From assembly GCA_017610205.1 (NCBI GenBank), contig JAFCCL010000014.1:1-22547 (forward strand): DNA of 22,547 nt, in the 5' to 3' direction. Shown here piece by piece: positions 1,048 through 20,313 of the stretch. The translations under genes and the position numbers were made by a program. Under the pieces are notes generated by a model. That model had not been told where the DNA came from and made no database searches. It was given only the letters and a program-made list of their open reading frames with translations. The DNA comes from Candidatus Iainarchaeum sp. (GTDB lineage: Archaea > Iainarchaeota > Iainarchaeia > Iainarchaeales > GCA-2688035). Position 1 is the stretch's first letter. Each line of letters starts with the position of its first letter.

Positions 1048-1120
1048 TATTATCTCCCTGCCTTTGCTTCGGCAACGGCAGGTTTATTATCTCCAGGGGA
1101 TTGTTCAAAACAATCCCTTG
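1048..1120 (+). ncRNA. Structured 5' leader or sRNA upstream of NYN1: two (TATTATCTCC + hairpin) units
   Basis: TATTATCTCC occurs at 1048-1057 and 1085-1094. Hairpin 1 is CCTGCC-T-TTGC[TTCG]GCAA-C-GGCAGG (1057-1082). Hairpin 2 is CAGGGGATTGTT[CAA]AACAATCCCTTG (1094-1120). Confidence 0.6.
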
Positions 1121-1135
1121 CTTACGGTTTTTCTA

Positions 1136-3304: not shown

Positions 3305-3955
3305 TTGCCTATTAAAGCGATTGGATTTGTTGATGGAAATAATTTTTACCACAACACGAAGAAAAATGGATTGAACTACAAACAAGCAGACTTTTCTGAA
3401 ATGGTAAAATATGTTTGCAGTAAGAAAGATTAGGAGTATAAAGGATTTTATTATTACAATTCTATTCCAGACCAACGTGAAAATAAAATCACATACTTTA
3501 AACAACTTTCTTATTTTGACCAAGTAAAGAATATGGATAAAAATTTAGACACAATTATAAGGAAACTTCGATATGCTTCAGATAGGGAAATATTAAACGA
3601 ACTCACCAAACGCAAAGAAACGTTAGGCTCGTTGAATTTGTGCAAAGACTGTATGGTAAAAATCAAACCTTGTTGTTATGATTGTGTAATGAAAAAAAGC
3701 GCGAGAGAGAAAGGAATTGATGTTAAGATTGCAATTGAAATCGTACAAAAAGCTTTGGCTGATGAATATGACGCCTGTGTTTTAATTTCGGGAGATTCAG
3801 ATTTTGTTCCAGCATTACAATTGATTGAAGAACGTGGGAAGAAAGCATTTAGTTTATTTATGCGGTGTAGAGGGTATTCTTGGGAACTAAGAAATAACAT
3901 AGAGTTTCATGCAATAAAAAATAAAGATTTTACAAATTTCTTACCATCTGACTAA
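3305..3955 (+). pseudogene. NYN domain nuclease with Cys-rich insert, interrupted by an in-frame TAG at 3431-3433
   Basis: From TTG 3305: MPIKAIGFVDGNNFYH...CSKKD*EYKGFYYYNS..., continuing in frame into the 3533 ORF (CKDC...CCYDC, EKGIDVKIA, LISGDSDFVP). Confidence 0.8.
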
Positions 3956-4203: not shown

Positions 4204-7200
4204 ATGTTTTCGGAAAAACTTGGCGGAATTTATTCAGCGCTTGAAGAAAAGTATTATGCGGTTCTTGACTTTTTGGACGCAAAAGGCGTTCCTGTTTATG
4301 CCTACAATGATGCATTGGAGGAAAGGGGTTTGCCTGCTTTTCCCATAACAATTGCGTTGATGGTAATTTTAATTGCAGGAATTTACGGCATTGTTTTTGC
4401 AGGAACCGGATTAAACCCTGCAATTGAAATCAGCTTTGAAGACCAGTTTAATGAAAGCGTATCAGGGGTTGCAGTAACTGTAAAAGATTCTTTTGGAACG
4501 GTTTTGTTTGGGCCTGAAAAAATTACCAATGGCGAAACAATCAGACCGCAAAGAATTCCGATTGGAACAGAAATTGTAATTGTTTCCGAAAAGTTGGGAT
4601 TTGATGAATCGGAAAAAAGAATTACTGTTAAAAGAAATGAAATCAGCACAAGCATTCAAATGCAAAGGCAAATTAGTGCAATTGATTCAAAGGTTCAGCT
4701 TTTAGACCAGGCAACAGGAGACCCTGTAAGGGGAGCTTCTGTTTCACTTGAATGGCAGGGTTCAACAAAAAATGCTGTCAGCGATAATGAGGGAAAGGCA
4801 AGCTTTGCAGGTGTCCCTGAAAACACTGAAGTGTTTTTGACAGTGCTGGCAGACGGATACGAAACCCTTTCTGCAAGCTATTCATTTAAGGAAAATGAGT
4901 TGAAGGGAATAAGCCTTGTTGGAAACAGTGCAAGCTTTTTGGGAAATTCAAACATAGTTGTAAGCGTCTTTGACGAAACAGGGCAGCCTATTAGCGGTGC
5001 AAAAATAGTTGTAATGGACAGGGAAACCGACACCAGCATTGATGAAAGAACAATTGAGGGAAACGAAGCAATTTTTTCAATTGCCAGAGGTTCAAGCATA
5101 AGGCTTGTTGTTGAAAAGGACGGATTTTTAAGATATGATTCAATGGAATTTGACGAAGGCAGAACTTTGAGACAGGATGAAGAGCTCTGGCCGGTTACAC
5201 TGAATGTAGGCGGAACAAGACTTGCTGTTAGCATATTTGTCGGACAAAATCCGTTGAGTGACGCCATAATTCAATTGTTTGACGTCAATGGAAATTTTGT
5301 TGGCATGAAAACAACAGGATTTGGCGGAAGCGTTGAATTCAACGGGCTTGAACCAAAAGAATATTTTGCCACAGGATACAAACAGGGCTTTTTGCCAATG
5401 TGGAAAAAAATCAATGTTGCAGAAATTGAAAACACAAGCCTTTTCATTGAATCAGCCGACAATTCAAACAGTTCATACCTTGGAATTTCTGTTCTTGATT
5501 CATTTAAGTCAATGGCAAACAATGCAGATGTTACATTTAAAGAAAGAATTGAAGGCAGCGAATACCCGCTTGGAATTCCTTCAATTAAAACAGACATAAG
5601 CGGCTATGCAAGCATTGTTGCAAAAACCGGAACGATGGTTATTGTTGAAGCAAAAAAAGAAGGAGAAGAAGGCATTGGAGAAAAACTCATTGAAGCAAAC
5701 AAAGACAACCAGCTTATTATAGAACTTACAAAGCCGTTTGGAATTGTAAAACTTGAAGTGTTTGACGCTCAAGGAAATAAGGCAGCAGGACACATAGTAA
5801 TTGAAAGTGTTAGCGGAACGCTTTTGTTTGACGGAAACCTTTTTGATGGAAGCGTTTTCTTTGACAACGAAGGCAACACCGAAGCCGTTGTAAATATTGA
5901 AACCGATTCAGGCAAAACCTTTTCACAAAGAATAAATGTACAGGGACAAGAAACAGCAGTAATAAACCTTGGAGAAATTTCAACAAAAATTACGCCAACA
6001 ATAGAATTTGTCGGAATTTTTGACAGCGAAAATTTTCCAGTTGAAGGAATTGCAAAAGGAGAAGATTACTGGCTTGCATTTCAAAGCACCTGGCCAACCG
6101 GAGTTGAAAAAGGCGGAGTGCACGTAAGAATCGGAGCAGACGGAATTGCATTTGTGGATTCACAGGAAGAATGGGTAACAGGATTTGAAGCCACAACATC
6201 AAATTATTTTTACGGAAAAAGCTACCAGCCACTGCCGGCTCCAGGAAACGAAACAGCAGATATGCAAAACTCAGGAATTGCAGGACAGGAAAACAAGTTT
6301 GTAGAATTATACTTTGAAGAGCCAGAAAACACTGTTGCATTCAGGGTAAAGGTTTCATCAAATTACCTCATTTCAAAAGACAGCATTGAACTGCATTACA
6401 GAGCATGGACAGAAGCAGGCGGAAAAATATTCAGAGAACCAACTGACACAGAGCTTGGCGAAAAAATGTTTACAGATACAAAAACAGGACTTTATGCAAA
6501 CACAATTAATGAACAAATTCAGGTTTTTGCAGCAAAACCAGAATGCGAAAATGAATTATGCGGAGCCTACTTCTTTGTGCTTCCAAACGGACTCTACATT
6601 GACAAACAGGATTTCAAAGCAGTTACCGACGAACTTTACGCACTTGAAATTGACCTGAGCTCAAACAAGCCATTGAGCGTTACACTAAAACTTGACACAG
6701 ACAAAGCCTTGCCAAAACTACAATTCACAGGATACGACGTTGACGAATTTGTAGACCAGCAGGAAGGAGAATTAATGCCGCCTGAAACAGACCTTTCAGG
6801 ACAAGGATATCTTGAAGTTGGCGAAGTGAACTGGGAATTGCAGGAAAGCACAAACCCACTTGGATTCACCCAAGGAGGAGAAAGCACTTCGCTGACAATT
6901 AGCGCTTTGGGCGTAAGCCCTGAAAGGCCAAGAAAGGTAAGAGTATATTTTAAAGCAGTAGGGGAAGGCTCTGCTGAAATAAAAATGCAGGCAATTGGAG
7001 AAAGCGTTTTGGACGAAAGCTTTATTTTTGAAATTGAAAGAAACAAGCCATTGCTTGTAAGAATTACCCCAAGCAGTCCGCAAATAGGAGAAGCTTTTAC
7101 AGTAAAGGTTTTGGACGGAGAAGACGGAAGTGCAGTGCAGGAAGCTGTTGTGCAGGTAAAAGATTCAGCCGGCAAAATTGTTGCCTCAGTTATTGGAAAA

Positions 7201-10200
7201 GGAAGCACAAGACACGGATTAAGCGGAGAATATTATTTTAGAAACAGCCTTGACCCAGGCTTTTACACAATCCATACAACCGCGGCAGGATACAAAGAAG
7301 AACAAGCAGAACTTACTATTGCAAGAGACGGAATTCTGGAAGTAAAAAGCCCTCTAAAAATAGATGTTTCAAAAGACTCAGGAGAACAAACAATTTCGCT
7401 TTCAATAAGAAACACAGGAGAAGAACCTGTTACAGAACTTACATACGAAATAGAAAAAGGCGACGACTTTCCTGAAGAATTTTCAGTAAGCGTTACCATG
7501 CCGGCAGAAATAGGAAAAGGACAGGATGGAACAGCCACAGTAAGAGTGCTTGTTAATCTGGATGAAGACAGTGAAGAAAGCCTTTACGGCGAAGCAGACC
7601 TTGTTGTCAAAGGAATGGTTTCAGAAAATTACCCAACAAGCAATATTACAAAATTGCAGATAAATTACAACAAGCAGCTTGACGAAGGATGCCTTTACTT
7701 TGACATAGAGCATTTAATGATAAGGCTAATTGGCAGGGCAGGAAGCACAGGAACAGGCGAAATCGAAGTTGAAAACAGATGCGGTACAGCACTTGACCTT
7801 AGGGCAAGTTCGGAAGCAAAATACCAAGACCCGAATTTAACAGTAACCGTTCCAACACTCAGAATTGAAAAAGACGAAACTGTAAAAGTAACAGTAAGTG
7901 TTTCAAACAGAATTGAAAGAATGAACAGCCTTAACGAAAGACACGATTACACATTAAAGTTTGAATCAAGCCAGATTGCAAAAACAATTCCTGTAACAGT
8001 TGAACTTTCCAACCCAAGAACAAATTTAAGCTATCCTCCAAACATTGCACTCTGGATGGTAAGAAATGCACAGGAAGAACTTGCATATGCACAGGCTCCA
8101 ATGCAAATAATTAACAACAGCCAAATTCCGGTTACAGGATTTAGAGCAGTTGCAAGACCGGAACAATACAATGCCGGCATAACCTTTGACATAAGGCCTG
8201 AAGAGAGATATGGAATAAACCTTTTCCCAGGCCAGCCAATGGCGCCTCAAAGATTTGTTTACGCAGAAACAAAGCAAACAGAAGCATTTCAAAAACCAGG
8301 ACAGGGATATGTTCAGCTATCAGGAAATGTTGAAGGAAGAATACAGCCAAATTTGGGGCTGATAAGGCTAAGCGCAAATTATTCAGGAATAAAATGCCTA
8401 AAAGCAAGCTTTGTTGACAGCTCTGAATTCAGCAGTACTGAAGCAGGAAAAGGAACGCTTGAAAGGGCAATAAAGATAAGGAACGAGTGCGGCGAACCAG
8501 TAAGAATTACCGGCATAACAAAACCTGAAAAAATAAGCGGAAACACATTTGCAATAAGCCCGGGAATAACACTCAACCCAGGAGTTGAAGGCAACTTCAA
8601 GCTAATTCTTTTAAAAAGCCAGGAAACAAAAACAACCGGAGCCATTAAAATGGTGGGGCTTTTAGTAAACCAGGGAAAGTACATTGAATCAAACGAATTA
8701 AGCGTTACACTAAAACTTGGAGAGCTTGCAGCAACAGCAGAAGGAAAGCACACTGCGGAAATATCAATAAAGAAATGCGATTCAGACAGCTCAGAAAGAA
8801 TTGCATTCCCTGTTCTTTCAAGCGACTGCACTGCAGGATACTGTGATGCAGAACAGCTTGCAACATTCCTTACAAACAAAGCAGAAACACTTGTAAAAAC
8901 AGCAAAAGAAAAAGCAAGACGTGCAGACTTCAGTGCCGAAGGCTTTGGAAACTGCTCACAGCCAGAAAAAGAATACTGCAGCTTTGTCGACATGGGAATT
9001 ATTAGCGAAACATTCCCTGTTTTCCTACAGCTTGACAACATGACAAAAGAAGTAATGTTCAAAGCACTGAGAGAAAGCAAGGAAGAAATTAAAGATTACG
9101 ATGTTCTGCAAGGAACAAAAAGCATTGAAAACATTGGAGGAGTTGGCTTTGACTTTGGCAACATAAACCTTGGCGGAAACTTTAAAGGATGCGGAAAATA
9201 TTACGTTGAGCTTATAGGTGCTGCAAGAATTCACAACGGAGAAATTATAGTAAGCAAAAACACAAAAGACTTCTGGATTTCAATAAATGTTATACAGGAA
9301 AGGGTAACAACAGACGAATGCCTGCACAATATTGAAAACGCAGCAAACTTTTTGCCGGTTGACGACGGCTTTACAATTAAAGAGCACTACTTTGCATGGC
9401 CTGGCTTTGTACAGGCAGGAACAGAATTTGGAGACCTGGGAAAAATATTTGCACAAGAGCTTTTTGGAGATGCAGAAGGAAGATACAGAGACAACATTTC
9501 AAGCGGAAGCAACAGAATTGAAATCGTAAAAGGAGATGTAGGAGAAGGGCTTTTGAAGGTAAGAATTTCAAAAAGCGGAGACCCGGAAGTACCAAAAACA
9601 ATTTATGCACATGTTCCGGCAGGATACTCGGAAGACAACAAAATTGTGGAAGACGAAATAGCAAAGGCATTCAAGTCATTCCAAAAAAGATCCTTTTCAA
9701 ACAAAGACTGCATTGGAGAAGACGATTCAGGACAGTACATTGTAATGAAAAGCTATTCAGACCCTGACAAGCTCTACGGCAAGCTTGAAATTAAGGGAGG
9801 AAACAGCCTAAAAATAAGCACTGGTGAAAGATGCACTGACTTCAATGTCACAAGCAAAACAAGCGAAAGCGTGATGTTTGAAACAGACTTTTTAACAAAG
9901 GGAAAAAACCCAAGCAAAAACGGAATAGAACATGTTGCAATAAAGAACACCAAGGGCGAAATTCTTTTGGAGGAAAAGGCAAACAAAAACAAAAAAGAAT
10001 TACAACAACTTAGACTTGTAAAAGACGACAAAGGAACTTACACTGCACAGGCACAATTCTGCATAAAAGGCAACAGCATGTTTACACAGGCAGCAGAAAA
10101 TATTAAGGACATTTCAATAACAGCAAAAAGCATAATTGGCACAACAGAACTTGACAGAAAAACAACACCGCACAAAATTGCAATTGAAGCATGCGGAATG

Positions 10201-12681
10201 CATCCGTATGACCTTATTCCAAAAATGGGAGAGGTTAAAGTAGGCAAAGGCGAGGGTGAAAAAGAAAAACTTGTTGCATACGTCACAATAAACTGGAGTG
10301 TTGAAGACGGCGACCCAAACGTTATTAACATAACCACAATACAAAGAGGAATTGCCGCAGAAGCAGCAATGGACGAAGCAAGAAAAATGTACGGTTCAGG
10401 AACAGACCTTCCGGTTGCAGAACAACCGGCATACATAAGGGAAACTTCGATGAACAAGCTTTTGGGAATTTGGACAGGTTATTTTCCGGCATGCATGATA
10501 ACTTCCATAATATCCAATATAGTTATGAAGATGGGCGGTGGTCTCTTTGGTATTCCGTTAGATGTTACATTAGACTGTTTTCTCCCAGCAAGTTGGGCTT
10601 CAAGGGATGCTGTAAAAGATATTGGAGGAGGAGGAAAAAGTATTGTTGAAAGCATTGAAAACTTTGTAAAAGACTACCTTCCTTTTGGCGAAAGTTTTGT
10701 TGATAGCACTGGAAATTCGACCCTTGTTCCAGAAAATAAGCAAGCAGCAGAAGCTCTTGCAAAAAACGAATTCAGGGAAGATATAGTTCCGGCAGCAGTT
10801 CTTGGAACAACATTGGACAGCTTAAAGCTTGGAGTAAGAAATGGAAACCAAATAATTGGAGAAATTTCCACAAGCCTTGCAAGCAAAAATATTGGAGAAA
10901 CAGTATTTAGAGAATTAAAAAGTGGTTCGCTTAAGGATTTGACAACAGCTGATCCAGCACTTGTCAAAGAAATGCAAGATGTTTATATAAAAGAACTTAA
11001 AAAAAGCATGATGGCAAGAAAAGTAGGAAGAACAAAAACAATTAATGACATAGCACTTGAATCAAGCCAGGAAGCATATGCCAAAATGGGTAATGAAATG
11101 GGCGAGAAGATAATAAAAAGTGCAAATAATCTTGGAACAGGAGCAGCAGGATCGTTAAAGGAGATAGAAACCAAAATTGCCAGCAGCTTCATGGACGAAG
11201 ATGCTGTTGTAAAGGCAAGCAAATTTGGAATAAGCCCTGAGTTAGGTTCAGAAACTATACCAAATACCCCTAGGTATAAGGTTGTTGTAAAAAATAGAAT
11301 TACAAAATACGAAAATGGCGTAAAAGATATGTTTGAAAATAATATCAAAAAGTCTCTAAAAGACCAGTTTGGAACAGATGCTGCTGGAAATAATATCTAT
11401 GATAAATTTTATGAGATAACACCAGCTACTCCAGAAAGCACAAAATTTACAAAAATAATTAATGACGCAATAGACGAAGGCAAAAAAGGTATTATAGCAA
11501 AACAAGACGGCGCACTTACCCCAATAAAAATCGGTGGCGGGCAATGGAATGCAGAAAAAATTACCGATTGGGAATTTAACGCAAAGATTACTACAAATCT
11601 TGATGACGCTGCAAGAGAAACAGTTGCAAGTGTGAGAAAAGAAGGTGCTGAGTTCATTGCCGAAAATGTTGTTGGCAAAAAAGTAGGGCAAGAGATTGCT
11701 GAAAAACTTTTTACAGGCGATGCAAGGCGCGGAGTTACTGGAATTGCCGATGAGGTTATTGATACTAGAAAGGGAGTAGGAGGACTTACAAAAATTAGGA
11801 CATTCTTTACAGGGTCTAACTTGAGAAGATTTATCAATTTGGCTACAACCTGGAATCTTGTAAAAAACCTTGCAAAAGGCGTTGCAAGCGGCGTTGCTTC
11901 AAACTATATGGGTTACCAAGGCTGGAAAGTATACTGGGGCATATTTGGAGAGGATGAAGTTAAGGGAGCCATAACAAGCAGTGTTGGGCCAAGGCCAGGG
12001 GAAGACATTGACGGAGACGGCATAATTGATGATGTAGATGGTTTGCCTGCAAGGCAAGAGCTTGAAAGAGGCCAGACTTACAAGATTATCATTACTGCTA
12101 CAGATTCTGGTAGAAAACATGAGTTTGTAAAGCTTGAGAAAAAGGAAGACTTTGAAAAAATGGACAAGGAGATAGCGGAAGGAAAAGCAGAGCTTTGGGA
12201 AGAACCAGGTTGCAAGAACTTCAAGGACAAAGGAGTTGGAAGATATCTTGGAAACCTTGATCCTGTTCCATCAAAAACTGTAAAGCCAGAGCATGTAACT
12301 GCTTACTACAATTACAATTCAGAGTTTGCAGACGCAAAAAGAGGAGATGCTTCAAGCGTTGGAGACGACCTTTACGAAGACGAACTGGCAGCAGCATTGT
12401 TTGTTGACCCAGGCAGAATTGAGGAATGCACAATTTCAAAAACATGGTATCTTCAAAGGCAGGGCGAAACAAAGGAAGATGCAAAACTAAGGGCTGTTGA
12501 AAGCATTAACTGCGCTGCAGGCGAGCTTAGGCAAGCAAAATTAAGAGCCGGAGCAGGAGCAAGCTTCAAAAATGTTGCAGCAGAACTTGTAAAAGGCCAG
12601 GAGGGTGCTGCAAACTATTCAGCTCTTGCCTTAGAATTCCAGGAAATTTGGGAAAGGTTCAGAATCATAAAAGCAAACTAG
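4204..12681 (+). CDS. Giant (2825 aa) membrane-anchored surface protein with carboxypeptidase-regulatory/Ig-like beta repeats
   Basis: N-terminal TM (FPITIALMVILIAGIYGIVF) and repeated 'V.D..G.P+.GA.V...T...G...F......GY' beta-sandwich units. A Cys-rich middle is followed by a helical region bounded by hydrophobic segments and a DxDGDG Ca-loop at about 12001-12040. Confidence 0.9.
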   Translation: MFSEKLGGIYSALEEKYYAVLDFLDAKGVPVYAYNDALEERGLPAFPITIALMVILIAGIYGIVFAGTGLNPAIEISFEDQFNESVSGVAVTVKDSFGTVLFGPEKITNGETIRPQRIPIGTEIVIVSEKLGFDESEKRITVKRNEISTSIQMQRQISAIDSKVQLLDQATGDPVRGASVSLEWQGSTKNAVSDNEGKASFAGVPENTEVFLTVLADGYETLSASYSFKENELKGISLVGNSASFLGNSNIVVSVFDETGQPISGAKIVVMDRETDTSIDERTIEGNEAIFSIARGSSIRLVVEKDGFLRYDSMEFDEGRTLRQDEELWPVTLNVGGTRLAVSIFVGQNPLSDAIIQLFDVNGNFVGMKTTGFGGSVEFNGLEPKEYFATGYKQGFLPMWKKINVAEIENTSLFIESADNSNSSYLGISVLDSFKSMANNADVTFKERIEGSEYPLGIPSIKTDISGYASIVAKTGTMVIVEAKKEGEEGIGEKLIEANKDNQLIIELTKPFGIVKLEVFDAQGNKAAGHIVIESVSGTLLFDGNLFDGSVFFDNEGNTEAVVNIETDSGKTFSQRINVQGQETAVINLGEISTKITPTIEFVGIFDSENFPVEGIAKGEDYWLAFQSTWPTGVEKGGVHVRIGADGIAFVDSQEEWVTGFEATTSNYFYGKSYQPLPAPGNETADMQNSGIAGQENKFVELYFEEPENTVAFRVKVSSNYLISKDSIELHYRAWTEAGGKIFREPTDTELGEKMFTDTKTGLYANTINEQIQVFAAKPECENELCGAYFFVLPNGLYIDKQDFKAVTDELYALEIDLSSNKPLSVTLKLDTDKALPKLQFTGYDVDEFVDQQEGELMPPETDLSGQGYLEVGEVNWELQESTNPLGFTQGGESTSLTISALGVSPERPRKVRVYFKAVGEGSAEIKMQAIGESVLDESFIFEIERNKPLLVRITPSSPQIGEAFTVKVLDGEDGSAVQEAVVQVKDSAGKIVASVIGKGSTRHGLSGEYYFRNSLDPGFYTIHTTAAGYKEEQAELTIARDGILEVKSPLKIDVSKDSGEQTISLSIRNTGEEPVTELTYEIEKGDDFPEEFSVSVTMPAEIGKGQDGTATVRVLVNLDEDSEESLYGEADLVVKGMVSENYPTSNITKLQINYNKQLDEGCLYFDIEHLMIRLIGRAGSTGTGEIEVENRCGTALDLRASSEAKYQDPNLTVTVPTLRIEKDETVKVTVSVSNRIERMNSLNERHDYTLKFESSQIAKTIPVTVELSNPRTNLSYPPNIALWMVRNAQEELAYAQAPMQIINNSQIPVTGFRAVARPEQYNAGITFDIRPEERYGINLFPGQPMAPQRFVYAETKQTEAFQKPGQGYVQLSGNVEGRIQPNLGLIRLSANYSGIKCLKASFVDSSEFSSTEAGKGTLERAIKIRNECGEPVRITGITKPEKISGNTFAISPGITLNPGVEGNFKLILLKSQETKTTGAIKMVGLLVNQGKYIESNELSVTLKLGELAATAEGKHTAEISIKKCDSDSSERIAFPVLSSDCTAGYCDAEQLATFLTNKAETLVKTAKEKARRADFSAEGFGNCSQPEKEYCSFVDMGIISETFPVFLQLDNMTKEVMFKALRESKEEIKDYDVLQGTKSIENIGGVGFDFGNINLGGNFKGCGKYYVELIGAARIHNGEIIVSKNTKDFWISINVIQERVTTDECLHNIENAANFLPVDDGFTIKEHYFAWPGFVQAGTEFGDLGKIFAQELFGDAEGRYRDNISSGSNRIEIVKGDVGEGLLKVRISKSGDPEVPKTIYAHVPAGYSEDNKIVEDEIAKAFKSFQKRSFSNKDCIGEDDSGQYIVMKSYSDPDKLYGKLEIKGGNSLKISTGERCTDFNVTSKTSESVMFETDFLTKGKNPSKNGIEHVAIKNTKGEILLEEKANKNKKELQQLRLVKDDKGTYTAQAQFCIKGNSMFTQAAENIKDISITAKSIIGTTELDRKTTPHKIAIEACGMHPYDLIPKMGEVKVGKGEGEKEKLVAYVTINWSVEDGDPNVINITTIQRGIAAEAAMDEARKMYGSGTDLPVAEQPAYIRETSMNKLLGIWTGYFPACMITSIISNIVMKMGGGLFGIPLDVTLDCFLPASWASRDAVKDIGGGGKSIVESIENFVKDYLPFGESFVDSTGNSTLVPENKQAAEALAKNEFREDIVPAAVLGTTLDSLKLGVRNGNQIIGEISTSLASKNIGETVFRELKSGSLKDLTTADPALVKEMQDVYIKELKKSMMARKVGRTKTINDIALESSQEAYAKMGNEMGEKIIKSANNLGTGAAGSLKEIETKIASSFMDEDAVVKASKFGISPELGSETIPNTPRYKVVVKNRITKYENGVKDMFENNIKKSLKDQFGTDAAGNNIYDKFYEITPATPESTKFTKIINDAIDEGKKGIIAKQDGALTPIKIGGGQWNAEKITDWEFNAKITTNLDDAARETVASVRKEGAEFIAENVVGKKVGQEIAEKLFTGDARRGVTGIADEVIDTRKGVGGLTKIRTFFTGSNLRRFINLATTWNLVKNLAKGVASGVASNYMGYQGWKVYWGIFGEDEVKGAITSSVGPRPGEDIDGDGIIDDVDGLPARQELERGQTYKIIITATDSGRKHEFVKLEKKEDFEKMDKEIAEGKAELWEEPGCKNFKDKGVGRYLGNLDPVPSKTVKPEHVTAYYNYNSEFADAKRGDASSVGDDLYEDELAAALFVDPGRIEECTISKTWYLQRQGETKEDAKLRAVESINCAAGELRQAKLRAGAGASFKNVAAELVKGQEGAANYSALALEFQEIWERFRIIKAN

Positions 12682-13365: not shown

Positions 13366-13734
13366 TTGCTGCTGGATACTTATGCCTGGGTTGAATTCTT
13401 TAACGGAACAGAAAAAGGCAAAAAAGTAAAAGCAATTCTTAAAAAAGAAAACTGCTTCACCAGTGCAATTTGCCTGGCAGAATTAAGCGAATGGATTGAA
13501 AGAGAAAACATTAACAGAAAGGAAAAAATGCACGAAATAAAAACCCTTTCTTCAATCCTAAAATTAGACCAGGAAACACTTGAACTGGCAGGCATACTAA
13601 AACTGCAAAAAAGAAAAAAAGAAAAAGGATTTGGGTTAATTGACGCAATAATCCTGGCAACGGCAAAAACTTACAAACTCAAAATAGTAACAGGAGACAG
13701 GCACTTCAAAGAAGAAAACACAATAATGCTGTAA
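13366..13734 (+). CDS. vapC: PIN domain toxin
   Basis: Acidic PIN motifs LLDTYAWVE, CLAEL, GLIDAIILATA and VTGDRHF. Confidence 0.9.
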   Translation: MLLDTYAWVEFFNGTEKGKKVKAILKKENCFTSAICLAELSEWIERENINRKEKMHEIKTLSSILKLDQETLELAGILKLQKRKKEKGFGLIDAIILATAKTYKLKIVTGDRHFKEENTIML

Positions 13735-15628: not shown

Positions 15629-16018
15629 TTAATTCTTTGTTTTCTTTTCTTTCCATTCTTTTTTTGCCTTCTTTTTTGCTTCTCTGGCTTCTTCAATGGT
15701 TGATGCCTTTTCGTTTCCGAATACATGCGGGTTTCTTTTCTCAAGCTTGTATTTCAATAACTCTAAAACTTCTTTAGTGGTGAAAAGCCCTTCGTTTTCT
15801 GCTTGCTGGCAAAAATCAAACCAGCTCCAGAGAACATCTCCCAACTCTTCTTTGAGTTCTTCCCAATCCTCTTTGTCTACTGCCATTCTTGCTTCTAGGG
15901 CTTCATCAACCAAATCTTTTTTGTAAAAATTGACAGTGTTGCACTTTGAGTCAGGACATTCTTTTTTGATTTTATTAAGAAGATTTTTTATTTCCAAGAA
16001 GAGTTTTTCGTTAATCAT
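15629..16018 (-). CDS. mazG: MazG-family nucleotide pyrophosphohydrolase
   Basis: ECP..., LVDEALE, KEELGDVLW and KLEKRNPHVFG motifs. Confidence 0.85.
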   Translation of the reverse strand: MINEKLFLEIKNLLNKIKKECPDSKCNTVNFYKKDLVDEALEARMAVDKEDWEELKEELGDVLWSWFDFCQQAENEGLFTTKEVLELLKYKLEKRNPHVFGNEKASTIEEAREAKKKAKKEWKEKKTKN

Positions 16019-16097: not shown

Positions 16098-16709
16098 TCA
16101 TTTTTTTAAGTAATTTAGAGTCAGTTTTGAATATAAATCAGTATATTTCTTTAGGTGACTTGTTTCTACAAATTCATTGGTGGTGTGTGCCATTAATTGA
16201 TTTCCAGGCCCAAGAACAACAATGTTTGGCTCGTTTTCAAATATTTCTGCTTCAAGGTAAAATGATGCGTCTGTTCCAAATATTGATTGTCTTGGTTTAA
16301 TGTTTGTTTCAAGAATTTTTTCCATTTCTTCGAGTGCAAATTCTGTGAAACTGCTTTTTGTTGAATCAAATGGCCCGTATATTCTTTTTCCAATACTTTC
16401 GAAAAGATTTGTTCCAATAAATTTGTAGCCTGCTTTTGAAAGGTCCTCTTCAGAAACTAGTGATTTTTCCAGGTTTTTTATTTCTTTAATGGTTTCTTTT
16501 AGTGCTTGTTCTGCAAATTCTTTTTTTTCTTCTGGCAAAATTGTTTCAAGTTGTCTTTCGAGAGGCATTCCAACAAGGCTTTCAAAAAAAAATCGGGTTA
16601 TTTTTTTACAACCAAGTTTGCCAAGCGTGTAATTTATTGTTTCAAAAATACCTTGGTTGCTATCAGCCAGTGTTCCGTCAAAATCAAAAATAAGCAATTT
16701 TGTACTCAT
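16098..16709 (-). pseudogene. Chimeric ORF: HAD-hydrolase N-terminus fused to M20 peptidase C-terminus
   Basis: IFDFDGTLADS (HAD motif I plus cap start) with no HAD motifs II-IV. The C-terminus has FGTDASF...VVLGPGN...AHTTNEFV (M20/ArgE-DapE). The likely start is ATG 16709. Confidence 0.7.
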
Positions 16710-16719
16710 ACTATTCACA

Positions 16720-16773
16720 TTACCACTCATAACTTTCTGTCACACACATTATTTGCTGTCCTACTTTTCCCAC
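16720..16773 (-). CDS. 17-aa peptide MGKVGQQIMCVTESYEW
   Basis: GTG start 4 nt after AGGTGA (the same SD type as vapB), with GGAGG further upstream. It fills the gap between the wHTH and HAD genes and is not in the ORF track. Confidence 0.55.
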   Translation of the reverse strand: MGKVGQQIMCVTESYEW

Positions 16774-16795: not shown

Positions 16796-17179
16796 TCATT
16801 TTGATTCATATACTATTGGTTGAATTTTTTTCAACTGAATGGTTGAATTTGGTGAAAAAACTCTTGTTCTGCTTTGCAAAAATCCTTCAACTGGTTGAGT
16901 GTATGCTTCTTCAAGGTTTGTTCCAAATTGCTTGATTTCCCTAATCCACTTAAGGTTTAAACAGTATTTTCTTTCGTGCTTGGCCAGGACTTTGTTTTCA
17001 ACCAGTTTCTTTAATGCTTTGTGCACTGCCTGCTGTGAAACGCTCAAAGAATAGTCTCTTACAACAGCAAAATAAATTTCTTTTAAAGAAAGAGGCCATT
17101 CATTTCCCAAAACATTGACAATCGCATCCTTTACTTTCCCGCCACCATTTACACAACCTGGCGAAGCTACTAATAACAA
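16796..17179 (-). CDS. Winged helix DNA-binding protein
   Basis: KDAIVNVLGNEWPLSLKEIY...SVSQQAVHKALKKLVENKVL...YCLN wHTH pattern. Confidence 0.8.
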   Translation of the reverse strand: MLLVASPGCVNGGGKVKDAIVNVLGNEWPLSLKEIYFAVVRDYSLSVSQQAVHKALKKLVENKVLAKHERKYCLNLKWIREIKQFGTNLEEAYTQPVEGFLQSRTRVFSPNSTIQLKKIQPIVYESK

Positions 17180-17315: not shown

Positions 17316-17398
17316 TTTTTAGCTAAAAAGGATAACCCTATTATAGTATTTTTATAGCAATGGTTGCTATTTTTATTCTTTTTTCATAACTAAGTTAT
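17316..17398. promoter_or_regulatory. Palindromes in the divergent promoter region
   Basis: TTTTTAGCTAAAAA (17316-17329), ATAGCAA-tgg-TTGCTAT (17354-17370) and ATAACT-a-AGTTAT (17386-17398). Confidence 0.45.
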
Positions 17399-17399
17399 T

Positions 17400-18671
17400 A
17401 TGGAATTGAGGGGTCTTTCGCTTTTGGTAAGCAATCAAAAAAACCATTTTACTAATTTAATTCATAAAAAGCAGGAAAACAATAGGCGCATTAATGTTTA
17501 TTTTTCTGTTAGTTACTCACATCCAAATTACTATTATCTCGCCCAACTTTTTTATCTTTCGCAGTTGGCGTTAAAAAATAATGTTTTTCTTTATCTTTGT
17601 TTAGGCGATACTGTTCTTTTTCGGAAAAAGAGAAGCCATTTTTCAGAACCCTTCAAGGCATATAACAAGGATAAAATGGATTCTTTGATTGAGGAAGTCC
17701 GTTCAGTTGTTGAATCTTTTGGTGTTGATCCAGAAAGAATTTTTGTTTATAAGGCATCCAATAACTGGCAGAAGCTATTGAAACTCGAGGACGAAGAAGT
17801 TTTTTCTTTTTTTAAAGGGCTTAATACCATTCCATCCAAAACCCAGAACATTGGTGAGAAAATAAGTGACATTTTTTATTTGCCAAAAAACACTAAGTAT
17901 GAACTTGGATATGTTGTAAACAAATATCTTGATTTGTTTGTATCAAGCCATTTGCATCAGCTTTTTCCAGAGGATATTGAAAACAAGATTGACATTTTTG
18001 TCGCGGGTAATTATAGCGGACAACTTATTTCAAATTTGCAGGGAATTCTTGTTGATGAAGAATTAATTTCAGAAAGCAGACCAATTATAACTGCTTTTCC
18101 TTTACTCCCTTGCTTTGGACAAAGTTCATCAATAGACCAAACTTTTAATGTGCCTCATTGGGATATGCAATTGGAAGAAATCTATGATGTGATTGAAAAA
18201 TATAATCTTCCAAGAAAACATATTGAAACAATATTAAGGAATTTGATTGCTAAAACAAAAAGAAAAATGATTTTTTCAACAAACGGAAAATCGGAAGAAG
18301 TTGATTTGTCTGAAATTTCTTTAGCTAAATTCCCAGTAAAAAAACAGCGTTTCCTACTGGCACATGCTTTGTTTGATTTTCTTCAGGAAATAAAATCAAA
18401 AAACAATATTAAGAATTGCAGCAATTATTTGGATTTAAAAAATCTGAATGAAATATATGAGCTTAGCAAGGCTTTCAAAAGCCCTCTTACAATAGATATT
18501 CTCACTTTAGCAGATAAAGGACATTCAGTTTCAGAAATTGCAAGAAAACTAAATAAGCATACTTCAAACATATCTACTGCAATAAGCACTCTTAAACAAA
18601 AGGGCCTTGTGCGAATAAATGGAAACGGTAAACTAGAAAAAGCAGTTAAAGTCATAAAAATTAATTTGTGA
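17400..18671 (+). CDS. Degenerate class Ic aminoacyl-tRNA-synthetase-like (TyrRS/TrpRS fold) domain fused to a C-terminal ArsR-like wHTH
   Basis: The C-terminal HTH is clear (SVSEIARKLNKHTSNISTAISTLKQKGLV). The N-terminal ~330 aa follow the order of TyrRS elements by eye: NVYFSV, FLYLCLGD, SFGVDPERIFVYKAS, IDIFVAG, FPLLPCFG, WDMQLEEIYDVI. HIGH and KMSKS are absent. Confidence 0.6.
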   Translation: MELRGLSLLVSNQKNHFTNLIHKKQENNRRINVYFSVSYSHPNYYYLAQLFYLSQLALKNNVFLYLCLGDTVLFRKKRSHFSEPFKAYNKDKMDSLIEEVRSVVESFGVDPERIFVYKASNNWQKLLKLEDEEVFSFFKGLNTIPSKTQNIGEKISDIFYLPKNTKYELGYVVNKYLDLFVSSHLHQLFPEDIENKIDIFVAGNYSGQLISNLQGILVDEELISESRPIITAFPLLPCFGQSSSIDQTFNVPHWDMQLEEIYDVIEKYNLPRKHIETILRNLIAKTKRKMIFSTNGKSEEVDLSEISLAKFPVKKQRFLLAHALFDFLQEIKSKNNIKNCSNYLDLKNLNEIYELSKAFKSPLTIDILTLADKGHSVSEIARKLNKHTSNISTAISTLKQKGLVRINGNGKLEKAVKVIKINL

Positions 18672-18677: not shown

Positions 18678-19478
18678 ATGGATAACTACGACCTTGTTAC
18701 TATAGGCCATGTCGGCTATGACTTTCCTGAAACTAAACAGGGGGAAAAAAAGATTCTCGGGGGTGCAGCATACTTTGCGGCCAAAGCAGCTTCTCTATTC
18801 TCAAAAAAATTGGGGATTGTAAGCAGAATTGGTTCAGATTTTGATGTAAGGAACCTGCAAGAACTTGGTATTGACCTTTCCGGAATAAAAGTGATTAATG
18901 GCGGAAAAACATTTAGATGGTATGCAAAGTACGATGAAGAATTTAATGTTATTAGTTCTAGAGGCGAGCTTAATGTAGGCGAAAACATATCCCCTGAAGA
19001 CATTCCCGAAAAGCTATTAAACACACAATTTTTTCATGTAGCAAGTATGCCACCACAAATGCAGAAAAAAATTGTTTCATATATTAAAGAAAAGAATTGT
19101 CAGGCAACAATAAGCATTGATACCATAGAAGCTTTTCTTCTTAAATGGCCAGAAGAAACAAACAAAGTCTTTTCAACTGCAGACATAGTTTTCGTTAATG
19201 AAAAGGAATTCCAACTACTTAATAGTAATATAAGGCAAAACAAACAGATAGTCAAAAAAATGGGTTCAAATGGAGCAGAGGCACTTTTCAATGGGAACAA
19301 ATTCACAGTACCCGCACCAAAAGTCGACAAAGTTTTTGACACTACTGGCGCCGGCGATACTCTTGCAGGAGTTTTTCTCACCCTTCTTGCAAAAGGTGAA
19401 ACAACAAAAAAAGCATTAAAGGAGGCGGTTAAAATTGCTTCAAAATCAGTTACAGCTTTTGGAATCGGACACATTTAA
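18678..19478 (+). CDS. PfkB/ribokinase-family kinase (possibly nucleoside kinase)
   Basis: LGGAAYFAA, VFVNEKE, KMGSNGA and DTTGAGDT signatures. Confidence 0.9.
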   Translation: MDNYDLVTIGHVGYDFPETKQGEKKILGGAAYFAAKAASLFSKKLGIVSRIGSDFDVRNLQELGIDLSGIKVINGGKTFRWYAKYDEEFNVISSRGELNVGENISPEDIPEKLLNTQFFHVASMPPQMQKKIVSYIKEKNCQATISIDTIEAFLLKWPEETNKVFSTADIVFVNEKEFQLLNSNIRQNKQIVKKMGSNGAEALFNGNKFTVPAPKVDKVFDTTGAGDTLAGVFLTLLAKGETTKKALKEAVKIASKSVTAFGIGHI

Positions 19479-20313
19479 GGAGCTAACGGCTCCGACAAAA
19501 GTTTGCTGGAATCTAACTAGTCGCTGCAATCTTCAATGCAAGTTTTGTTATGGCCCTCAAAATATTAAACAAGAATTAAATACAATACAGGTAAAAAAAG
19601 TTCTTGACAAGCTTAAAAAAGCAGGCGTTCAAAGAATTGTTCTAAGTGGCGGAGAGCCTTTGTTGAGAAAAGACATTCATAAAATAATAATACACGCATA
19701 TTCACTCGGCCTTACTATTTCCTTAGCAACAAATGGACTTCTCTTAAACGAAATGTTCCTTGAACAAACAAAGAATTATCTGTCAATGATAGAAATTACA
19801 GTCGACGGACCCGACAACAAAATAGAGGAATCTATGAGGGGAAACAAGAAAATATTCCACCAAATTACCAAAAATCTTGAGATGGTAAAAAGCAAGGGCA
19901 TTCCAATTAAAATCAACACAATGGTCTGCAAAAAGAATTTTCTCTTAATAGAACAAATAGGCCTAATTGTGAAAAAATATAATCCCAAATGTTGGAAAAT
20001 ATTTCAATTCATTCCAAAAAACAGAGGCAGACTCTATAAAGAAGAATTTGAGATAACAAACCAAGAATTTGAACAATTAAAACAAAAAATTACAAACAAG
20101 TTTTCAGAACTAGATATTATCTGGGCATCAAAAGATTTTTTTAATGGCTCATATTTTGATATTTATCCAAATGGAAACGTTATGATTCCAGAAATAGAAA
20201 AGGATAATCAAATTGGAAACATTTTAACACAAAGTGTTGAAGAACTCTGGAACAATACTTTAGTAGACAAAAAAAAACACATACAGCAAGCAGCAGTTCC
20301 ATATGAAAGTTAA
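19435..20313 (+). CDS. Radical SAM enzyme, viperin-like
   Basis: CNLQCKFC, SGGEPLL, ATNG, IKINTMV, WKIFQF, FEITNQEF and SYFDIYPNG motifs. GGAGG at 19421 precedes the TTG start, which overlaps the pfkB end. Confidence 0.85.
   Translation: MLQNQLQLLESDTFKELTAPTKVCWNLTSRCNLQCKFCYGPQNIKQELNTIQVKKVLDKLKKAGVQRIVLSGGEPLLRKDIHKIIIHAYSLGLTISLATNGLLLNEMFLEQTKNYLSMIEITVDGPDNKIEESMRGNKKIFHQITKNLEMVKSKGIPIKINTMVCKKNFLLIEQIGLIVKKYNPKCWKIFQFIPKNRGRLYKEEFEITNQEFEQLKQKITNKFSELDIIWASKDFFNGSYFDIYPNGNVMIPEIEKDNQIGNILTQSVEELWNNTLVDKKKHIQQAAVPYES

What the first reader, a model, noticed from the sequence alone, without database searches (positions are those of the whole stretch)
17400..18671. Aminoacyl-tRNA-synthetase fold apparently repurposed as a transcription-factor sensor domain
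Seen: a clear C-terminal wHTH. The preceding ~330 aa track archaeal TyrRS by eye: beta1 NVYFSV, NYYY at the HIGH position, LCLGD for ILLAD, GVDPERIFVYKAS, IDIFVAG for VDVAVGG, PLLPCFG for PVLTGLDG, no KMSKS, and DMQLEEIYDVI for DDSPEEIRAKI. Inference: a catalytically dead class Ic synthetase sensing an amino acid, adenylate analogue, peptide or tRNA and regulating the island. I know of no described regulator with this architecture.
Basis: inference. Interest (0 to 1): 0.8.

Follow-up and report, generated by a model that had tools for sequence, protein, structure and literature searches.

The report
Dead tyrosyl-tRNA synthetase fused to DNA-binding domain
A small archaeon encodes a protein that is predicted to be a complete but catalytically dead copy of the enzyme that loads tyrosine onto tRNA, fused to a DNA-binding domain, so an old translation enzyme seems to have been turned into the sensing half of a gene switch.

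Summary

- **Sequence signal.** Likeness to TyrRS is marginal: hhalign E 0.044, and no Pfam hit.
- **Motifs.** HIGH is replaced (Tyr44 where TyrRS has His) and KMSKS is gone. A few TyrRS-invariant pocket and core residues survive: D70 in 50/50, W123, D178, F180, D198, P228 and P252.
- **Dimer.** A homodimer through the CP1-equivalent region is predicted (ipSAE 0.48, best control 0.00).
- **Family.** It is small and patchy: 72 representatives, and full-length copies in 15 of 201 related genomes. It has no Pfam or NCBIfam model, and five literature searches found no description.
- **Neighbours.** A PfkB kinase and a viperin-like radical SAM gene lie directly downstream. A small winged-helix gene lies divergently upstream.

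Best reading (confidence 0.6): a dimeric one-component regulator with a TyrRS-derived sensor. The ligand and the target genes are inferred, not shown.

The parts
17400..18671 (+). Gene for the 423-aa TyrRS-like/wHTH fusion protein ('REG')
   Evidence: ORF. There are 8 close and 72 representative homologues, most about 400-425 aa and matching full length. AF2 models have pLDDT 81.3 and 90.1.
17400..18170 (+). Residues 1-257: Rossmann-type catalytic-core equivalent with the CP1-like insertion. It holds the degenerate HIGH position (N43-Y44) and the degenerate KMSKS position (around P252-x-W254).
   Evidence: Strand/helix order. Alignment to TyrRS. Conserved residues: D70 50/50, G108 48, S120 46, W123 45, D178 40, F180 40, D198 39, P228 45, P237 46, P252 49. 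The predicted dimer interface is residues 70-75, 88-90, 120-149 and 166-173.
18171..18419 (+). Residues 258-340: helical/beta domain equivalent to the TyrRS C-terminal (anticodon-binding) domain
   Evidence: VIA alignments run to model residue 336-343 and to the end of the TyrRS chains. Conservation here is mostly hydrophobic. The TyrRS H-P-x-D-L-K columns keep the same residue in only 0-18% of family members.
18438..18668 (+). Residues 347-423: ArsR/SmtB-type winged helix-turn-helix. It ends at the wing, with no helix after it.
17316..17398 (.). Upstream region with three short perfect palindromes: 17316-17329 (7+7, no spacer), 17354-17370 (7-N3-7, overlapping a TATA-like T-rich stretch) and 17386-17398 (6-N1-6, just before the ATG). 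These are candidate operators.
   Evidence: Shuffle test: 3 observed against 0.74 expected, 4.3% of shuffles reach 3. No shared motif was seen in the 14 homologous upstream regions. Operator function is inferred.
16796..17179 (-). Small (127 aa) winged-helix-like protein, divergently transcribed. It is a recurrent partner of the fusion gene.
   Evidence: The same protein cluster lies divergent and adjacent in the window, L039, L041, L045, L046 and L049 and in L006, which is 7 of 16 copies. Alignment A4. No Pfam, NCBIfam or PADLOC hit.
18678..19478 (+). PfkB-family (ribokinase-like) kinase, starting 7 nt after the fusion gene's stop codon
   Evidence: PF00294 E 5.6e-23. NCBIfam's best hits are ribose-1-phosphate and nucleoside kinases, all below cut-off. 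A PfkB homologue also starts 3 nt after the fusion gene in L005.
19435..20313 (+). Viperin-like radical SAM protein (candidate prokaryotic viperin), overlapping the kinase gene by 44 nt
   Evidence: PADLOC pVip 'associated with kinases' E 3.9e-47, profile positions 5-260 of 262. NCBIfam viperin_w_prok 143.9 bits, below the cut-off of 180. PF04055 E 2.4e-24.

Best explanation
The gene encodes a homodimeric one-component transcription regulator.

**Sensor half.** Its sensing and dimerising part is a complete paralogue of archaeal-type tyrosyl-tRNA synthetase, with the Rossmann core, the CP1 dimer interface and the C-terminal helical domain. It has lost the HIGH and KMSKS motifs, so it can no longer make aminoacyl-adenylate.

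**DNA-binding half.** A C-terminal ArsR-type winged helix lacks a dimerisation helix of its own. It is presented in two copies by the synthetase-like dimer and binds DNA.

**Proposed mechanism (inferred).**
- A small molecule binds in the remodelled former Tyr-AMP pocket. Candidates are an amino acid, an aromatic compound or a nucleoside-like compound.
- The residues proposed to line that pocket are the conserved D70, Y/H171, Q174, D178, D198, N43-Y44 and P252-x-W254.
- Binding changes the relative position of the two winged helices. That changes repression or activation of the gene's own transcription unit.
- In this genome that unit is the fusion gene, the PfkB kinase and the viperin-like radical SAM gene. 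The divergent small wHTH gene may also be controlled.

**Shown here, by prediction and comparison:** the fold, the domain order, the motif loss, conservation at positions aligned with the TyrRS active site, the predicted dimer interface, and the gene order.

**Inferred:** DNA binding, ligand binding, the ligand's identity, and the target genes.
For: **Fold.**
- Foldseek's top hits are all TyrRS, from E 1.4e-8.
- The ranking is TyrRS > TrpRS > bacterial TyrRS/TrpRS > CDPS > Gln/Glu/Lys/CysRS. Viral TyrRS models also come top.

**Winged helix.**

**Loss of catalysis.**
- TyrRS H46 aligns with Y44 (Tyr 43/50, His 3/50).
- The KMSKS columns keep the TyrRS residue in 0-4% of members, and 28-50 of the 50 have gaps there.
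- In G-x-D-Q, D183 is kept in 10% and Q184 in 2%.

**Retained TyrRS-invariant residues**: D70 100%, W123 90%, D178 80%, F180 80%, D198 78%, R214 70%, P228 90%, P252 98%. D178 aligns with the TyrRS Asp of the Q-A-A-D-I-F helix. In M. jannaschii TyrRS, Asp158 and Tyr32 bind the tyrosine hydroxyl (PMC9499402, passages read). Mapping the genome's own TyrRS to M. jannaschii numbering is my inference.

**Dimer.** ipSAE 0.48 (three runs: 0.44, 0.55, 0.48) against a best control of 0.00. Runs share at least 72% of contacts, and partner pLDDT is at least 78. The tool's mark was reached by 20 of 30 solved homodimers and 1 of 23 monomers. The interface is residues 120-149 and 166-173, the CP1 equivalent, and includes the conserved S120 and W123. 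The likeness to solved TyrRS dimers may drive this pass.

**Not needed for translation.** The genome has a canonical TyrRS (HIAQ, KMSKS) and a canonical TrpRS.

**Gene order.**
- A 7-nt gap to PfkB, then a 44-nt overlap into the viperin-like gene.
- PfkB is again directly downstream in the nearest genome-collection homologue.
- The divergent small wHTH gene is present at 7 of 16 copies.
- Upstream palindromes overlap a TATA-like stretch.
Against: - **Weak sequence signal.** hhalign gives probability 1.2% and E 0.044. A family HMM of residues 1-340, searched against 2988 ORFs of the genome, ranks the TrpRS ORF 364th and the TyrRS ORF 1183rd of 2368 scored. The case therefore rests on predicted structures and on fitted alignments.
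- **No coordinates.** I had no residue-level superposition, so 'pocket-lining' is inferred from alignment to TyrRS.
- **wHTH scores.** Its Pfam and NCBIfam scores are all below the curated cut-offs.
- **No shared operator.** No common motif was seen in 14 upstream regions. The window's palindromes are only mildly enriched.
- **Variable neighbours.** They include kinase plus viperin-like, MoaA-like-kinase plus CYTH, a sugar-type cluster, GcpE, polyprenyl synthases, HD, NUDIX and KsgA. No conserved regulon points to a ligand.
- **Tyrosine site only partly kept.** The Tyr32 equivalent is Tyr in 36% and Phe in 42%. The Q166 equivalent is never Gln. The Q184 equivalent is kept in 2%.
Confidence: 0.6

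Rival explanations
1. It is a tRNA- or aminoacyl-tRNA-binding protein. One version is an enzyme that uses aminoacyl-tRNA without ATP, like cyclodipeptide synthases or the whole-synthetase-like transferases of natural-product pathways. The other is a sensor of tRNA charging. The winged helix would either help hold RNA or couple tRNA status to transcription.
For: - The whole TyrRS architecture, including the C-terminal tRNA-binding domain equivalent, is kept.
- A Ser is conserved just after strand 1 (S36, 37/50). CDPSs use a catalytic Ser together with a Glu (AlbC Ser37 and Glu182; PMC12945691, passages read).
- The same review describes AlaRS-like and IleRS-like enzymes that keep the synthetase architecture and use aminoacyl-tRNA.
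- Protein-language-model neighbours include clusters with CDPS and PvcA members, but scores are 0.88-0.89, below the 0.9 lead level.
- Radical SAM and other biosynthetic-looking genes lie nearby in 8 of 16 copies.
Against: - The aligned anticodon-recognition columns are not conserved: H314 0%, P315 8%, D317 16%, K319 14%. D317 of the genome's own TyrRS is, by my mapping, the equivalent of M. jannaschii Asp286.
- Conservation in residues 258-340 is mainly hydrophobic.
- The position aligned with TyrRS Q166 is Lys, Met or Leu, never Glu.
- There is no CDPS Pfam hit.
- The C-terminal domain matches DNA-binding ArsR repressors closely (rmsd 1.9-2.0), and its recognition helix is conserved.
- No tRNA gene lies in the window.
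Confidence: 0.15
2. It is a transcription factor in which the synthetase-like domain is only a dimerisation scaffold. There is no ligand, and regulation comes from protein level or from the partner wHTH protein.
For: - The best-supported retained function is the CP1-type dimer interface, which holds the conserved S120 and W123.
- Most TyrRS substrate-binding residues are lost.
- The wHTH lacks a dimerisation helix of its own, so it needs a dimerising partner domain.
- A second small wHTH gene is a recurrent neighbour.
Against: - An invariant Asp (D70, 50/50) and further conserved polar residues lie at positions aligned with the TyrRS active site, not only at the interface. These are N43, Y44, Q174, D178, D198 and R214.
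- A 340-residue, two-domain scaffold is costly in genomes of about 1-1.4 Mb.
Confidence: 0.15
3. The TyrRS likeness is an artefact of structure prediction. Residues 1-340 would then be an unrelated Rossmann-like domain, for example a CARF-like or USP-like nucleotide sensor as in Csa3-type regulators.
For: - No significant sequence match to any synthetase.
- The wHTH's best HMM matches are the wHTH of Csa3, CasR and CARF regulators.
Against: - Two models from different alignment depths give the same topology with pLDDT 81 and 90.
- A different predictor (ESMFold2) gives a confident fold with a CP1-type dimer.
- Two aligners recover one colinear register, with the family's most conserved residues on TyrRS-invariant residues.
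- The Csa3 and CARF HMM matches cover only residues 334-420.
Confidence: 0.05

Closest known systems
Archaeal/eukaryotic-type tyrosyl-tRNA synthetase (class Ic; e.g. PDB 2cya, 2cyb, 1j1u, 1n3l)
   Same: - Predicted dimer through the CP1-equivalent region.
- A handful of invariant residues are retained: the Asp after strand 2, Trp123, the D-x-F of the pocket helix, the Asp at strand 4 and two Pro.
   Different: - No HIGH, no KMSKS and no G-x-D-Q, and the anticodon motif is not kept.
- No Pfam PF00579 match.
- Carries a C-terminal ArsR-type wHTH.
- The genome has a separate canonical TyrRS.
Cyclodipeptide synthases (class Ic-derived, aminoacyl-tRNA-dependent)
   Different: CDPSs lack the C-terminal synthetase domain and have no wHTH. 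Here the match to TyrRS is far stronger, there is no CDPS Pfam hit, and no Glu sits at the position aligned with TyrRS Q166.
BirA (biotin protein ligase/repressor) and NadR: enzyme-derived regulators with an HTH (recalled, not checked in a call)
   Same: The same design principle: an adenylate-forming or nucleotidyl-transferase type domain joined to a winged helix or HTH, so that ligand state controls DNA binding. BirA's catalytic domain is class II synthetase-like and NadR's is HUP-class.
   Different: BirA and NadR are active enzymes with an N-terminal HTH. Here the domain derives from a class I (Ic) synthetase, is apparently inactive, keeps the tRNA-binding domain equivalent, and has its wHTH at the C-terminus.
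ArsR/SmtB family repressors (e.g. CzrA 1r1u, SmtB, CadC)
   Different: It has no helix after the wing for dimerisation. It is not a roughly 100-aa stand-alone protein. Dimerisation and sensing are proposed to come from the 340-aa N-terminal part.
Csa3/CasR-type regulators (CARF Rossmann-like sensor + wHTH)
   Same: A Rossmann-type N-terminal sensor followed by a C-terminal wHTH. The wHTH gives the best HMM matches to this group (NCBIfam E 1.1e-6, PADLOC E 2.1e-7). It sits next to a candidate defence gene.
   Different: The HMM matches cover only residues 334-420. The N-terminal part models as TyrRS, and no CARF chain is among the listed structural matches.

Membership tests
Tyrosyl-tRNA synthetase / class Ic aaRS (Pfam PF00579) | Sequence match to the family model | tested here: not met
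   - No PF00579 hit even at E up to 10.
- The family profile finds no synthetase in the PDB sequences.
- hhalign against a TyrRS alignment gives E 0.044, probability 1.2%.
- The N-domain HMM ranks the genome's own TyrRS 1183rd and TrpRS 364th of 2368 ORFs.
Tyrosyl-tRNA synthetase / class Ic aaRS | Rossmann core + CP1 insertion + C-terminal helical domain, in that order | tested here: met
   [not shown]
Tyrosyl-tRNA synthetase / class Ic aaRS | HIGH signature (ATP binding) | tested here: not met
   TyrRS H46 aligns with Y44. Among 50 members it is Tyr in 43 and His in 3. The Q49 column is all gaps.
Tyrosyl-tRNA synthetase / class Ic aaRS | KMSKS loop | tested here: not met
   Same-residue fractions in the family are K231 0%, M232 0%, S233 4%, K234 0% and S235 4%. 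Between 28 and 50 of the 50 members have a gap in these columns.
Tyrosyl-tRNA synthetase / class Ic aaRS | Tyrosine-binding residues (M. jannaschii Tyr32 and Asp158, PMC9499402 passages; the others are recalled) | tested here: inconclusive
   - The Asp equivalent, D178, is kept in 80%, with Glu in a further 12%.
- The Tyr32 equivalent is Tyr in 36% and Phe in 42%. In the window's protein it is Y34.
- The Y162 equivalent is Tyr in 48% and His in 32%.
- The Q166 equivalent is kept in 0% and the Q184 equivalent in 2%.
- The mapping rests on a sequence alignment, not on a superposition.
Tyrosyl-tRNA synthetase / class Ic aaRS | Anticodon recognition motif in the C-terminal domain (Asp286 of M. jannaschii TyrRS, PMC9499402 passages) | tested here: not met
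   The aligned columns H314, P315, D317, L318 and K319 keep the TyrRS residue in 0, 8, 16, 18 and 14% of members.
Tyrosyl-tRNA synthetase / class Ic aaRS | Homodimer through CP1 | tested here: met
   Prediction only: ipSAE 0.48 against a best control of 0.00. At least 72% of contacts are shared between runs and pLDDT is at least 78. The mark was reached by 20 of 30 solved homodimers and 1 of 23 monomers. The interface is residues 120-149 and 166-173. The pass may reflect memory of solved TyrRS dimers.
ArsR/SmtB-type wHTH transcription factors | Winged helix fold with recognition helix | tested here: met
   [not shown]
ArsR/SmtB-type wHTH transcription factors | Family HMM above the curated cut-off | tested here: not met
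   Pfam HTH_5 scores 18.9 bits against a cut-off of 22. NCBIfam HTH_metalloreg scores 24.6 against 55. The family profile does reach ArsR/CzrA chains at E 1.5e-5 to 3e-5.
ArsR/SmtB-type wHTH transcription factors | C-terminal helix after the wing for dimerisation, and metal sites | tested here: not met
   The protein ends in the wing strands (E404-406, E412-414, E418-421) with no further helix.
ArsR/SmtB-type wHTH transcription factors | Sequence-specific DNA binding | not testable with these tools
   Only candidate palindromes were found upstream.
Cyclodipeptide synthases | Family HMM (PF16715), and a catalytic Ser plus Glu (AlbC Ser37 and Glu182, PMC12945691 passages) | tested here: inconclusive
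   - No Pfam CDPS hit.
- S36 is conserved in 37/50 after strand 1.
- No Glu sits at the column aligned with TyrRS Q166.
- No residue-level superposition on a CDPS was available.
Csa3/CARF-wHTH regulators | CARF sensor domain N-terminal to the wHTH | tested here: inconclusive
   The Csa3, CasR and CARF HMM matches cover residues 334-420 only. No CARF chain appears in the 50 listed rows of either wide structural search, and that does not exclude the family.
Prokaryotic viperin (the neighbouring gene at 19435-20313) | Full-length match to pVip models | tested here: inconclusive
   PADLOC pVip gives E 3.9e-47 over profile positions 5-260 of 262. NCBIfam viperin_w_prok gives 143.9 bits, below its cut-off of 180.

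The most novel reading that the evidence does not exclude
The TyrRS-derived module may still recognise a translation-related molecule. Candidates are tRNA-Tyr or its fragments, a tyrosyl-adenylate-like nucleotide, or a nucleotide made or used by the neighbouring kinase and viperin-like enzymes. The protein would then couple translation or infection status directly to transcription of an antiviral nucleotide-modifying operon. That would be a protein counterpart of a T-box-type tRNA sensor, acting on DNA, in DPANN archaea.
Probability: 0.1. Interest if true: 0.9.

Novelty: new variant of a known kind. Interest (0 to 1): 0.62.

Why it matters
Synthetase paralogues are known as enzymes (CDPS, GluQRS, MshC, AsnA) and as allosteric subunits (HisZ). 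A class II-like ligase with an HTH, BirA, is a textbook regulator. All of these are recalled, not checked in a call. A complete class I (TyrRS) copy that has lost catalysis and gained a DNA-binding domain would add a new sensor fold to one-component regulators. It would also be a clear case of an ancient translation enzyme turned into a signalling module, in archaea with very small genomes.

The protein is a compact, testable candidate for biochemistry (dimer, DNA site, ligand screen). If the ligand proves to be an amino acid or a nucleotide, it could serve as a scaffold for biosensors, given how readily the TyrRS pocket has been re-engineered. Its position in front of a kinase and a viperin-like gene also offers a handle on how such candidate antiviral operons are controlled in DPANN archaea.

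Tried and rejected
**Sequence searches with no synthetase signal**
- Single-sequence search of the PDB found only a chance hit, E 0.36.
- The family profile against PDB sequences found only wHTH proteins.
- The N-domain HMM against all ORFs of the genome gave no synthetase signal. It gave one weak local hit to a 162-aa ORF on contig 16 (E 3.5e-4), which I did not follow.

**Other readings of the domains**
- RiPP-recognition-element reading of the C-terminal domain: rejected. The element order is helices followed by wing strands, as in ArsR. The PqqD-type matches were E 0.09-0.6.
- CARF reading of the N-domain: the HMM matches cover only the wHTH.
- ESM Atlas: all scores were below 0.9 (CDPS and PvcA clusters at 0.88-0.89), so these are leads only. 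No structure search was possible.

**Operators and context**
- A shared operator motif across 14 upstream regions: none seen.
- The bacterial promoter/terminator scan was uninformative for an archaeon.
- No tRNA gene lies in the window.
- The divergent 177-aa ORF in L005 is not a significant member of the small-wHTH cluster (hhalign E 0.21).

**Collection scans**
- The search for related loci with the 50-row alignment: no conserved stretch.
- With the 7-row alignment, genome contigs gave 4 loci.
- Two metagenome-contig scans found no relative. One attempt got no answer from the machine.
- The first phylum-wide genome search got no answer and was repeated with n=200.

**Expression and earlier notes**
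- Sequencing runs: none was listed, and no RNA holder was listed.
- Earlier findings of this scan: nothing by place, sequence or words.

**Literature**
- Five searches found no description of a TyrRS-like or class I synthetase-like domain fused to a wHTH.
- A viperin preprint (10.1101/2023.09.13.557418, passages read) mentions kinase neighbours of viperins. The terms regulator, helix-turn-helix, synthetase and DPANN had no occurrence in its main text.
- Supplementary files of papers were not consulted.
Full report
**What is there.** The window has a 423-codon ORF at 17400-18671 on the + strand.
- Pfam, NCBIfam and PADLOC see only a C-terminal winged helix-turn-helix on residues ~335-420. All those scores are below the curated cut-offs: TrmB E 3.7e-5, ArsR-type HTH_5 E 1.4e-3, NCBIfam Csa3-HTH E 1.1e-6, PADLOC Csa3 E 2.1e-7.
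- Nothing in these libraries covers residues 1-340.
- A single-sequence search of PDB sequences found nothing meaningful.

**The family.** It is real but small.
- A word-indexed search of 5.8 billion proteins gave 8 proteins, including the window's own. One is named by its source as a helix-turn-helix regulator of a Candidatus Diapherotrites archaeon.
- An exhaustive HMMER scan of 1.84 billion cluster representatives gave 72 proteins at E ≤ 1e-3, of which 54 were ≤ 1e-10. Most are 390-430 aa and match over the full length, so the two-part architecture is conserved.
- I aligned the 7 closest as A1. A2 has 50 rows, 49 homologues plus the query, all of at least 378 aa with near full-length matches. 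I dropped the 28 other proteins returned (fragments and wHTH-only proteins).

**Fold.**
- AlphaFold2 on A1 gave pLDDT 81.3 and pTM 0.72. On A2 it gave pLDDT 90.1 and pTM 0.77, with the same secondary structure.
- Foldseek against the PDB returned only TyrRS and TrpRS chains at the top. Human TyrRS 4q93 scored E 1.4e-8, and A. fulgidus TyrRS 2cyb had TM 0.57-0.58 normalised to the target.
- Searches of 48,161 PDB representatives that do not rely on Foldseek gave a clean hierarchy for both models:

|---|---|
| Archaeal/eukaryotic TyrRS | 16.9-19.6 |
| Archaeal/eukaryotic TrpRS | 15.3-16.2 |
| Mitochondrial/bacterial TyrRS | 12.3-15.5 |
| Bacterial TrpRS | 10.8-15.7 |
| Cyclodipeptide synthases (residues 1-237 only) | 8.6-11.0 |
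| Gln/Glu/Lys-I/CysRS, MshC, USP proteins | 8.4-9.2 |

- The match runs through the C-terminal helical domain, so the whole synthetase is represented, not just a Rossmann fold.
- Among viral models the best matches are giant-virus TyrRS.

**Sequence-level link to TyrRS.** It is weak.
- The genome (1.37 Mb, 24 contigs, 92% complete) has a canonical TyrRS with HIAQ and KMSKS, and a canonical TrpRS.
- hhalign of A2 against 28 TyrRS, picked by me from the 120 listed and aligned as A3, gave E 0.044 and probability 1.2%. The alignment is 269 columns long and colinear.
- An HMM of residues 1-340 did not find the synthetases among the genome's ORFs. TrpRS ranked 364th and TyrRS 1183rd of 2368.
- In that alignment, 8 of the 24 family columns with consensus ≥ 74% carry the residue of a TyrRS column that is ≥ 90% conserved. 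Random pairing gives a mean of 0.70, and column shifts give 0-2. This count is inflated, because aligners seek identities.
- Read the other way, only 10 of 130 TyrRS columns conserved at ≥ 95% keep their residue in at least half of the family. Kept: M1, D73 (D70, 100%), W125 (W123, 90%), D169 (D178, 80%), F171 (F180, 80%), D176 (D198, 78%), R192 (R214, 70%), G199 (G221, 56%), P203 (P228, 90%) and P237 (P252, 98%).
- Lost: the G-F-E-P-S-G stretch, the HIGH histidine (Tyr in 43 of 50), KMSKS (0-4%), D and Q of G-x-D-Q (10% and 2%), and the H-P-x-D-L-K stretch of the C-terminal domain (0-18%).
- So it is not a member of the TyrRS enzyme family by that family's defining motifs. It is best read as a very divergent paralogue.

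**What the conservation suggests.**
- The invariant or near-invariant polar residues are N43, Y44, D70, Q174, D178, D198 and R214. They lie at positions that align with the TyrRS active-site strands, loops and pocket helix.
- D178 aligns with the Asp of the TyrRS pocket helix. In M. jannaschii TyrRS, Asp158 and Tyr32 hydrogen-bond the tyrosine hydroxyl (PMC9499402, passages read). Mapping to that numbering is my inference.
- In the window's protein and its close relatives the Tyr32 equivalent is Tyr (Y34), and Y171 and D178 are invariant.
- This fits a remodelled but still used ligand pocket. It does not identify the ligand.
- The aligned anticodon-recognition Asp (Asp286 in M. jannaschii, same paper) is not conserved. 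That argues against canonical tRNA-Tyr recognition.

**Dimer.**
- A two-copy prediction (ESMFold2) passed the tool's mark. ipSAE was 0.48 (runs 0.44, 0.55, 0.48) against a best control of 0.00. Runs shared at least 72% of contacts, and pLDDT was at least 78.
- That mark was reached by 20 of 30 solved homodimers and 1 of 23 monomers.
- The interface is residues 70-75, 88-90, 120-149 and 166-173. This is the CP1 equivalent and includes the conserved S120 and W123.
- Because TyrRS dimers are solved, the pass may reflect likeness rather than independent evidence.

**Distribution and context.**
- In 201 genomes sampled from the phylum, 70 have some match. Only 15 have a full-length copy, giving 16 copies because one genome has two. 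All 15 are in the same order. In the window's own genus it is 1 of 6 genomes.
- Named records point to Iainarchaeum/Diapherotrites, which are DPANN archaea.
- I examined 16 copies: the window, 13 fetched regions and two short contigs.
- A small wHTH-like protein (window 16796-17179, −) lies divergent and adjacent in 7 of the 16, and is two genes away in one more.
- Radical SAM genes lie within the flanks in 8 of the 16, but belong to different subfamilies:
  - In the window, a viperin-like gene at 19435-20313 (PADLOC pVip E 3.9e-47; NCBIfam 143.9 bits, below the cut-off of 180). It is preceded by a PfkB kinase at 18678-19478.
  - In three loci, a MoaA-like radical SAM fused to an AAA_18/dCTPase-like kinase. 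It is divergent and adjacent, and a CYTH gene follows it in two of the three.
  - In three loci, a SPASM-type enzyme within a sugar-like cluster that also holds a class I LysRS-like fragment.
  - In one locus, a radical SAM-HMG-CoA reductase ORF.
- Other immediate neighbours are HD, NUDIX, MazG, KsgA, an ATP-grasp protein, GcpE, polyprenyl synthases and methyltransferases.
- In the nearest genome-collection homologue (56% identity) a PfkB gene again starts 3 nt after the fusion gene, and then the contig ends.
- In the window, the 7-nt gap and the 44-nt overlap suggest one transcription unit: fusion gene, kinase, viperin-like gene.
- Three short palindromes lie upstream. One overlaps a TATA-like stretch. 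They exceed shuffles only modestly, and no motif is shared with the other 13 upstream regions.

**Reading.** My confidence for each reading is:

| Reading | Confidence |
|---|---|
| Dimeric one-component regulator with a complete, catalytically dead TyrRS paralogue as sensor and dimerisation module, and a C-terminal ArsR-type wHTH | 0.6 |
| tRNA or aminoacyl-tRNA-binding protein or enzyme | 0.15 |
| Ligand-free dimerisation scaffold | 0.15 |
| Prediction artefact | 0.05 |

- Precedent for the second reading comes from CDPSs and from the synthetase-like transferases reviewed in PMC12945691 (passages read).
- The fold and the motif loss are well supported. DNA binding, ligand sensing and the target genes are inferred.

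**Novelty.**
- No Pfam or NCBIfam model covers the N-terminal part.
- Five full-text searches found no description of such a fusion.
- Enzyme-derived sensor domains on HTH regulators are a known theme (BirA and NadR, recalled). I therefore rate this a new variant of a known kind, of real interest to people who study synthetase evolution and archaeal regulation.

Noticed in passing
window 18678-20313: A PfkB-family kinase and a viperin-like radical SAM gene overlap by 44 nt (PADLOC pVip 'associated with kinases' E 3.9e-47; NCBIfam viperin model below cut-off). This is a candidate antiviral nucleotide-modifying pair in a DPANN archaeon. Its kinase is ribokinase-type, not a nucleoside-monophosphate kinase.
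   Followed up: partly
L047:3436-4440 (-), also in L048 and L050: A 335-aa protein with a class I LysRS-like catalytic fragment and a zinc ribbon (PF01921 E 7.9e-17). It sits in a cluster with radical SAM-SPASM, DegT aminotransferase, a PEP-utiliser mobile domain, an epimerase and a nucleoside 2-deoxyribosyltransferase-like gene, next to a homologue of the fusion gene. It is a second synthetase paralogue in the same neighbourhood.
   Followed up: no
L042:2340-3842, L043:6443-8056, L044:1647-3143: A MoaA-like radical SAM domain is fused to an AAA_18/dCTPase-like kinase domain (498-537 aa), divergent from and adjacent to the fusion-gene homologue. A CYTH-domain gene follows it in L042 and L044.
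   Followed up: partly
window 16098-16730 (-): One 210-aa ORF joins a HAD hydrolase N-terminal piece (residues ~10-86) to the C-terminal piece of an M20 peptidase/deacylase (residues ~120-205). It looks like a chimeric or decayed gene.
   Followed up: no
window 4204-12681 (+): A giant 2825-aa ORF whose only Pfam matches are CarboxypepD_reg-like domains. It is probably a large surface protein.
   Followed up: no
window 1064-1678, 3533-3955, 13366-13734, 15629-16018: Two NYN-domain genes, a PIN-domain gene and a MazG-type pyrophosphohydrolase lie in the same 22-kb stretch. With the viperin-like gene, this gives the window the look of a variable or defence-type region.
   Followed up: no
G000 contig C16:91414-91902 (-): A 162-aa ORF gives a weak local match (E 3.5e-4, 16.9 bits) to positions 52-105 of the N-domain HMM, the strand-2 region with the invariant Asp. 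It may be chance.
   Followed up: no
L041:10548-12653 (+): One 701-aa ORF combines a radical SAM domain (residues 15-167) with a full HMG-CoA reductase domain (323-680). GcpE and NUDIX genes are nearby. Whether it is a true fusion or two merged genes was not checked.
   Followed up: no
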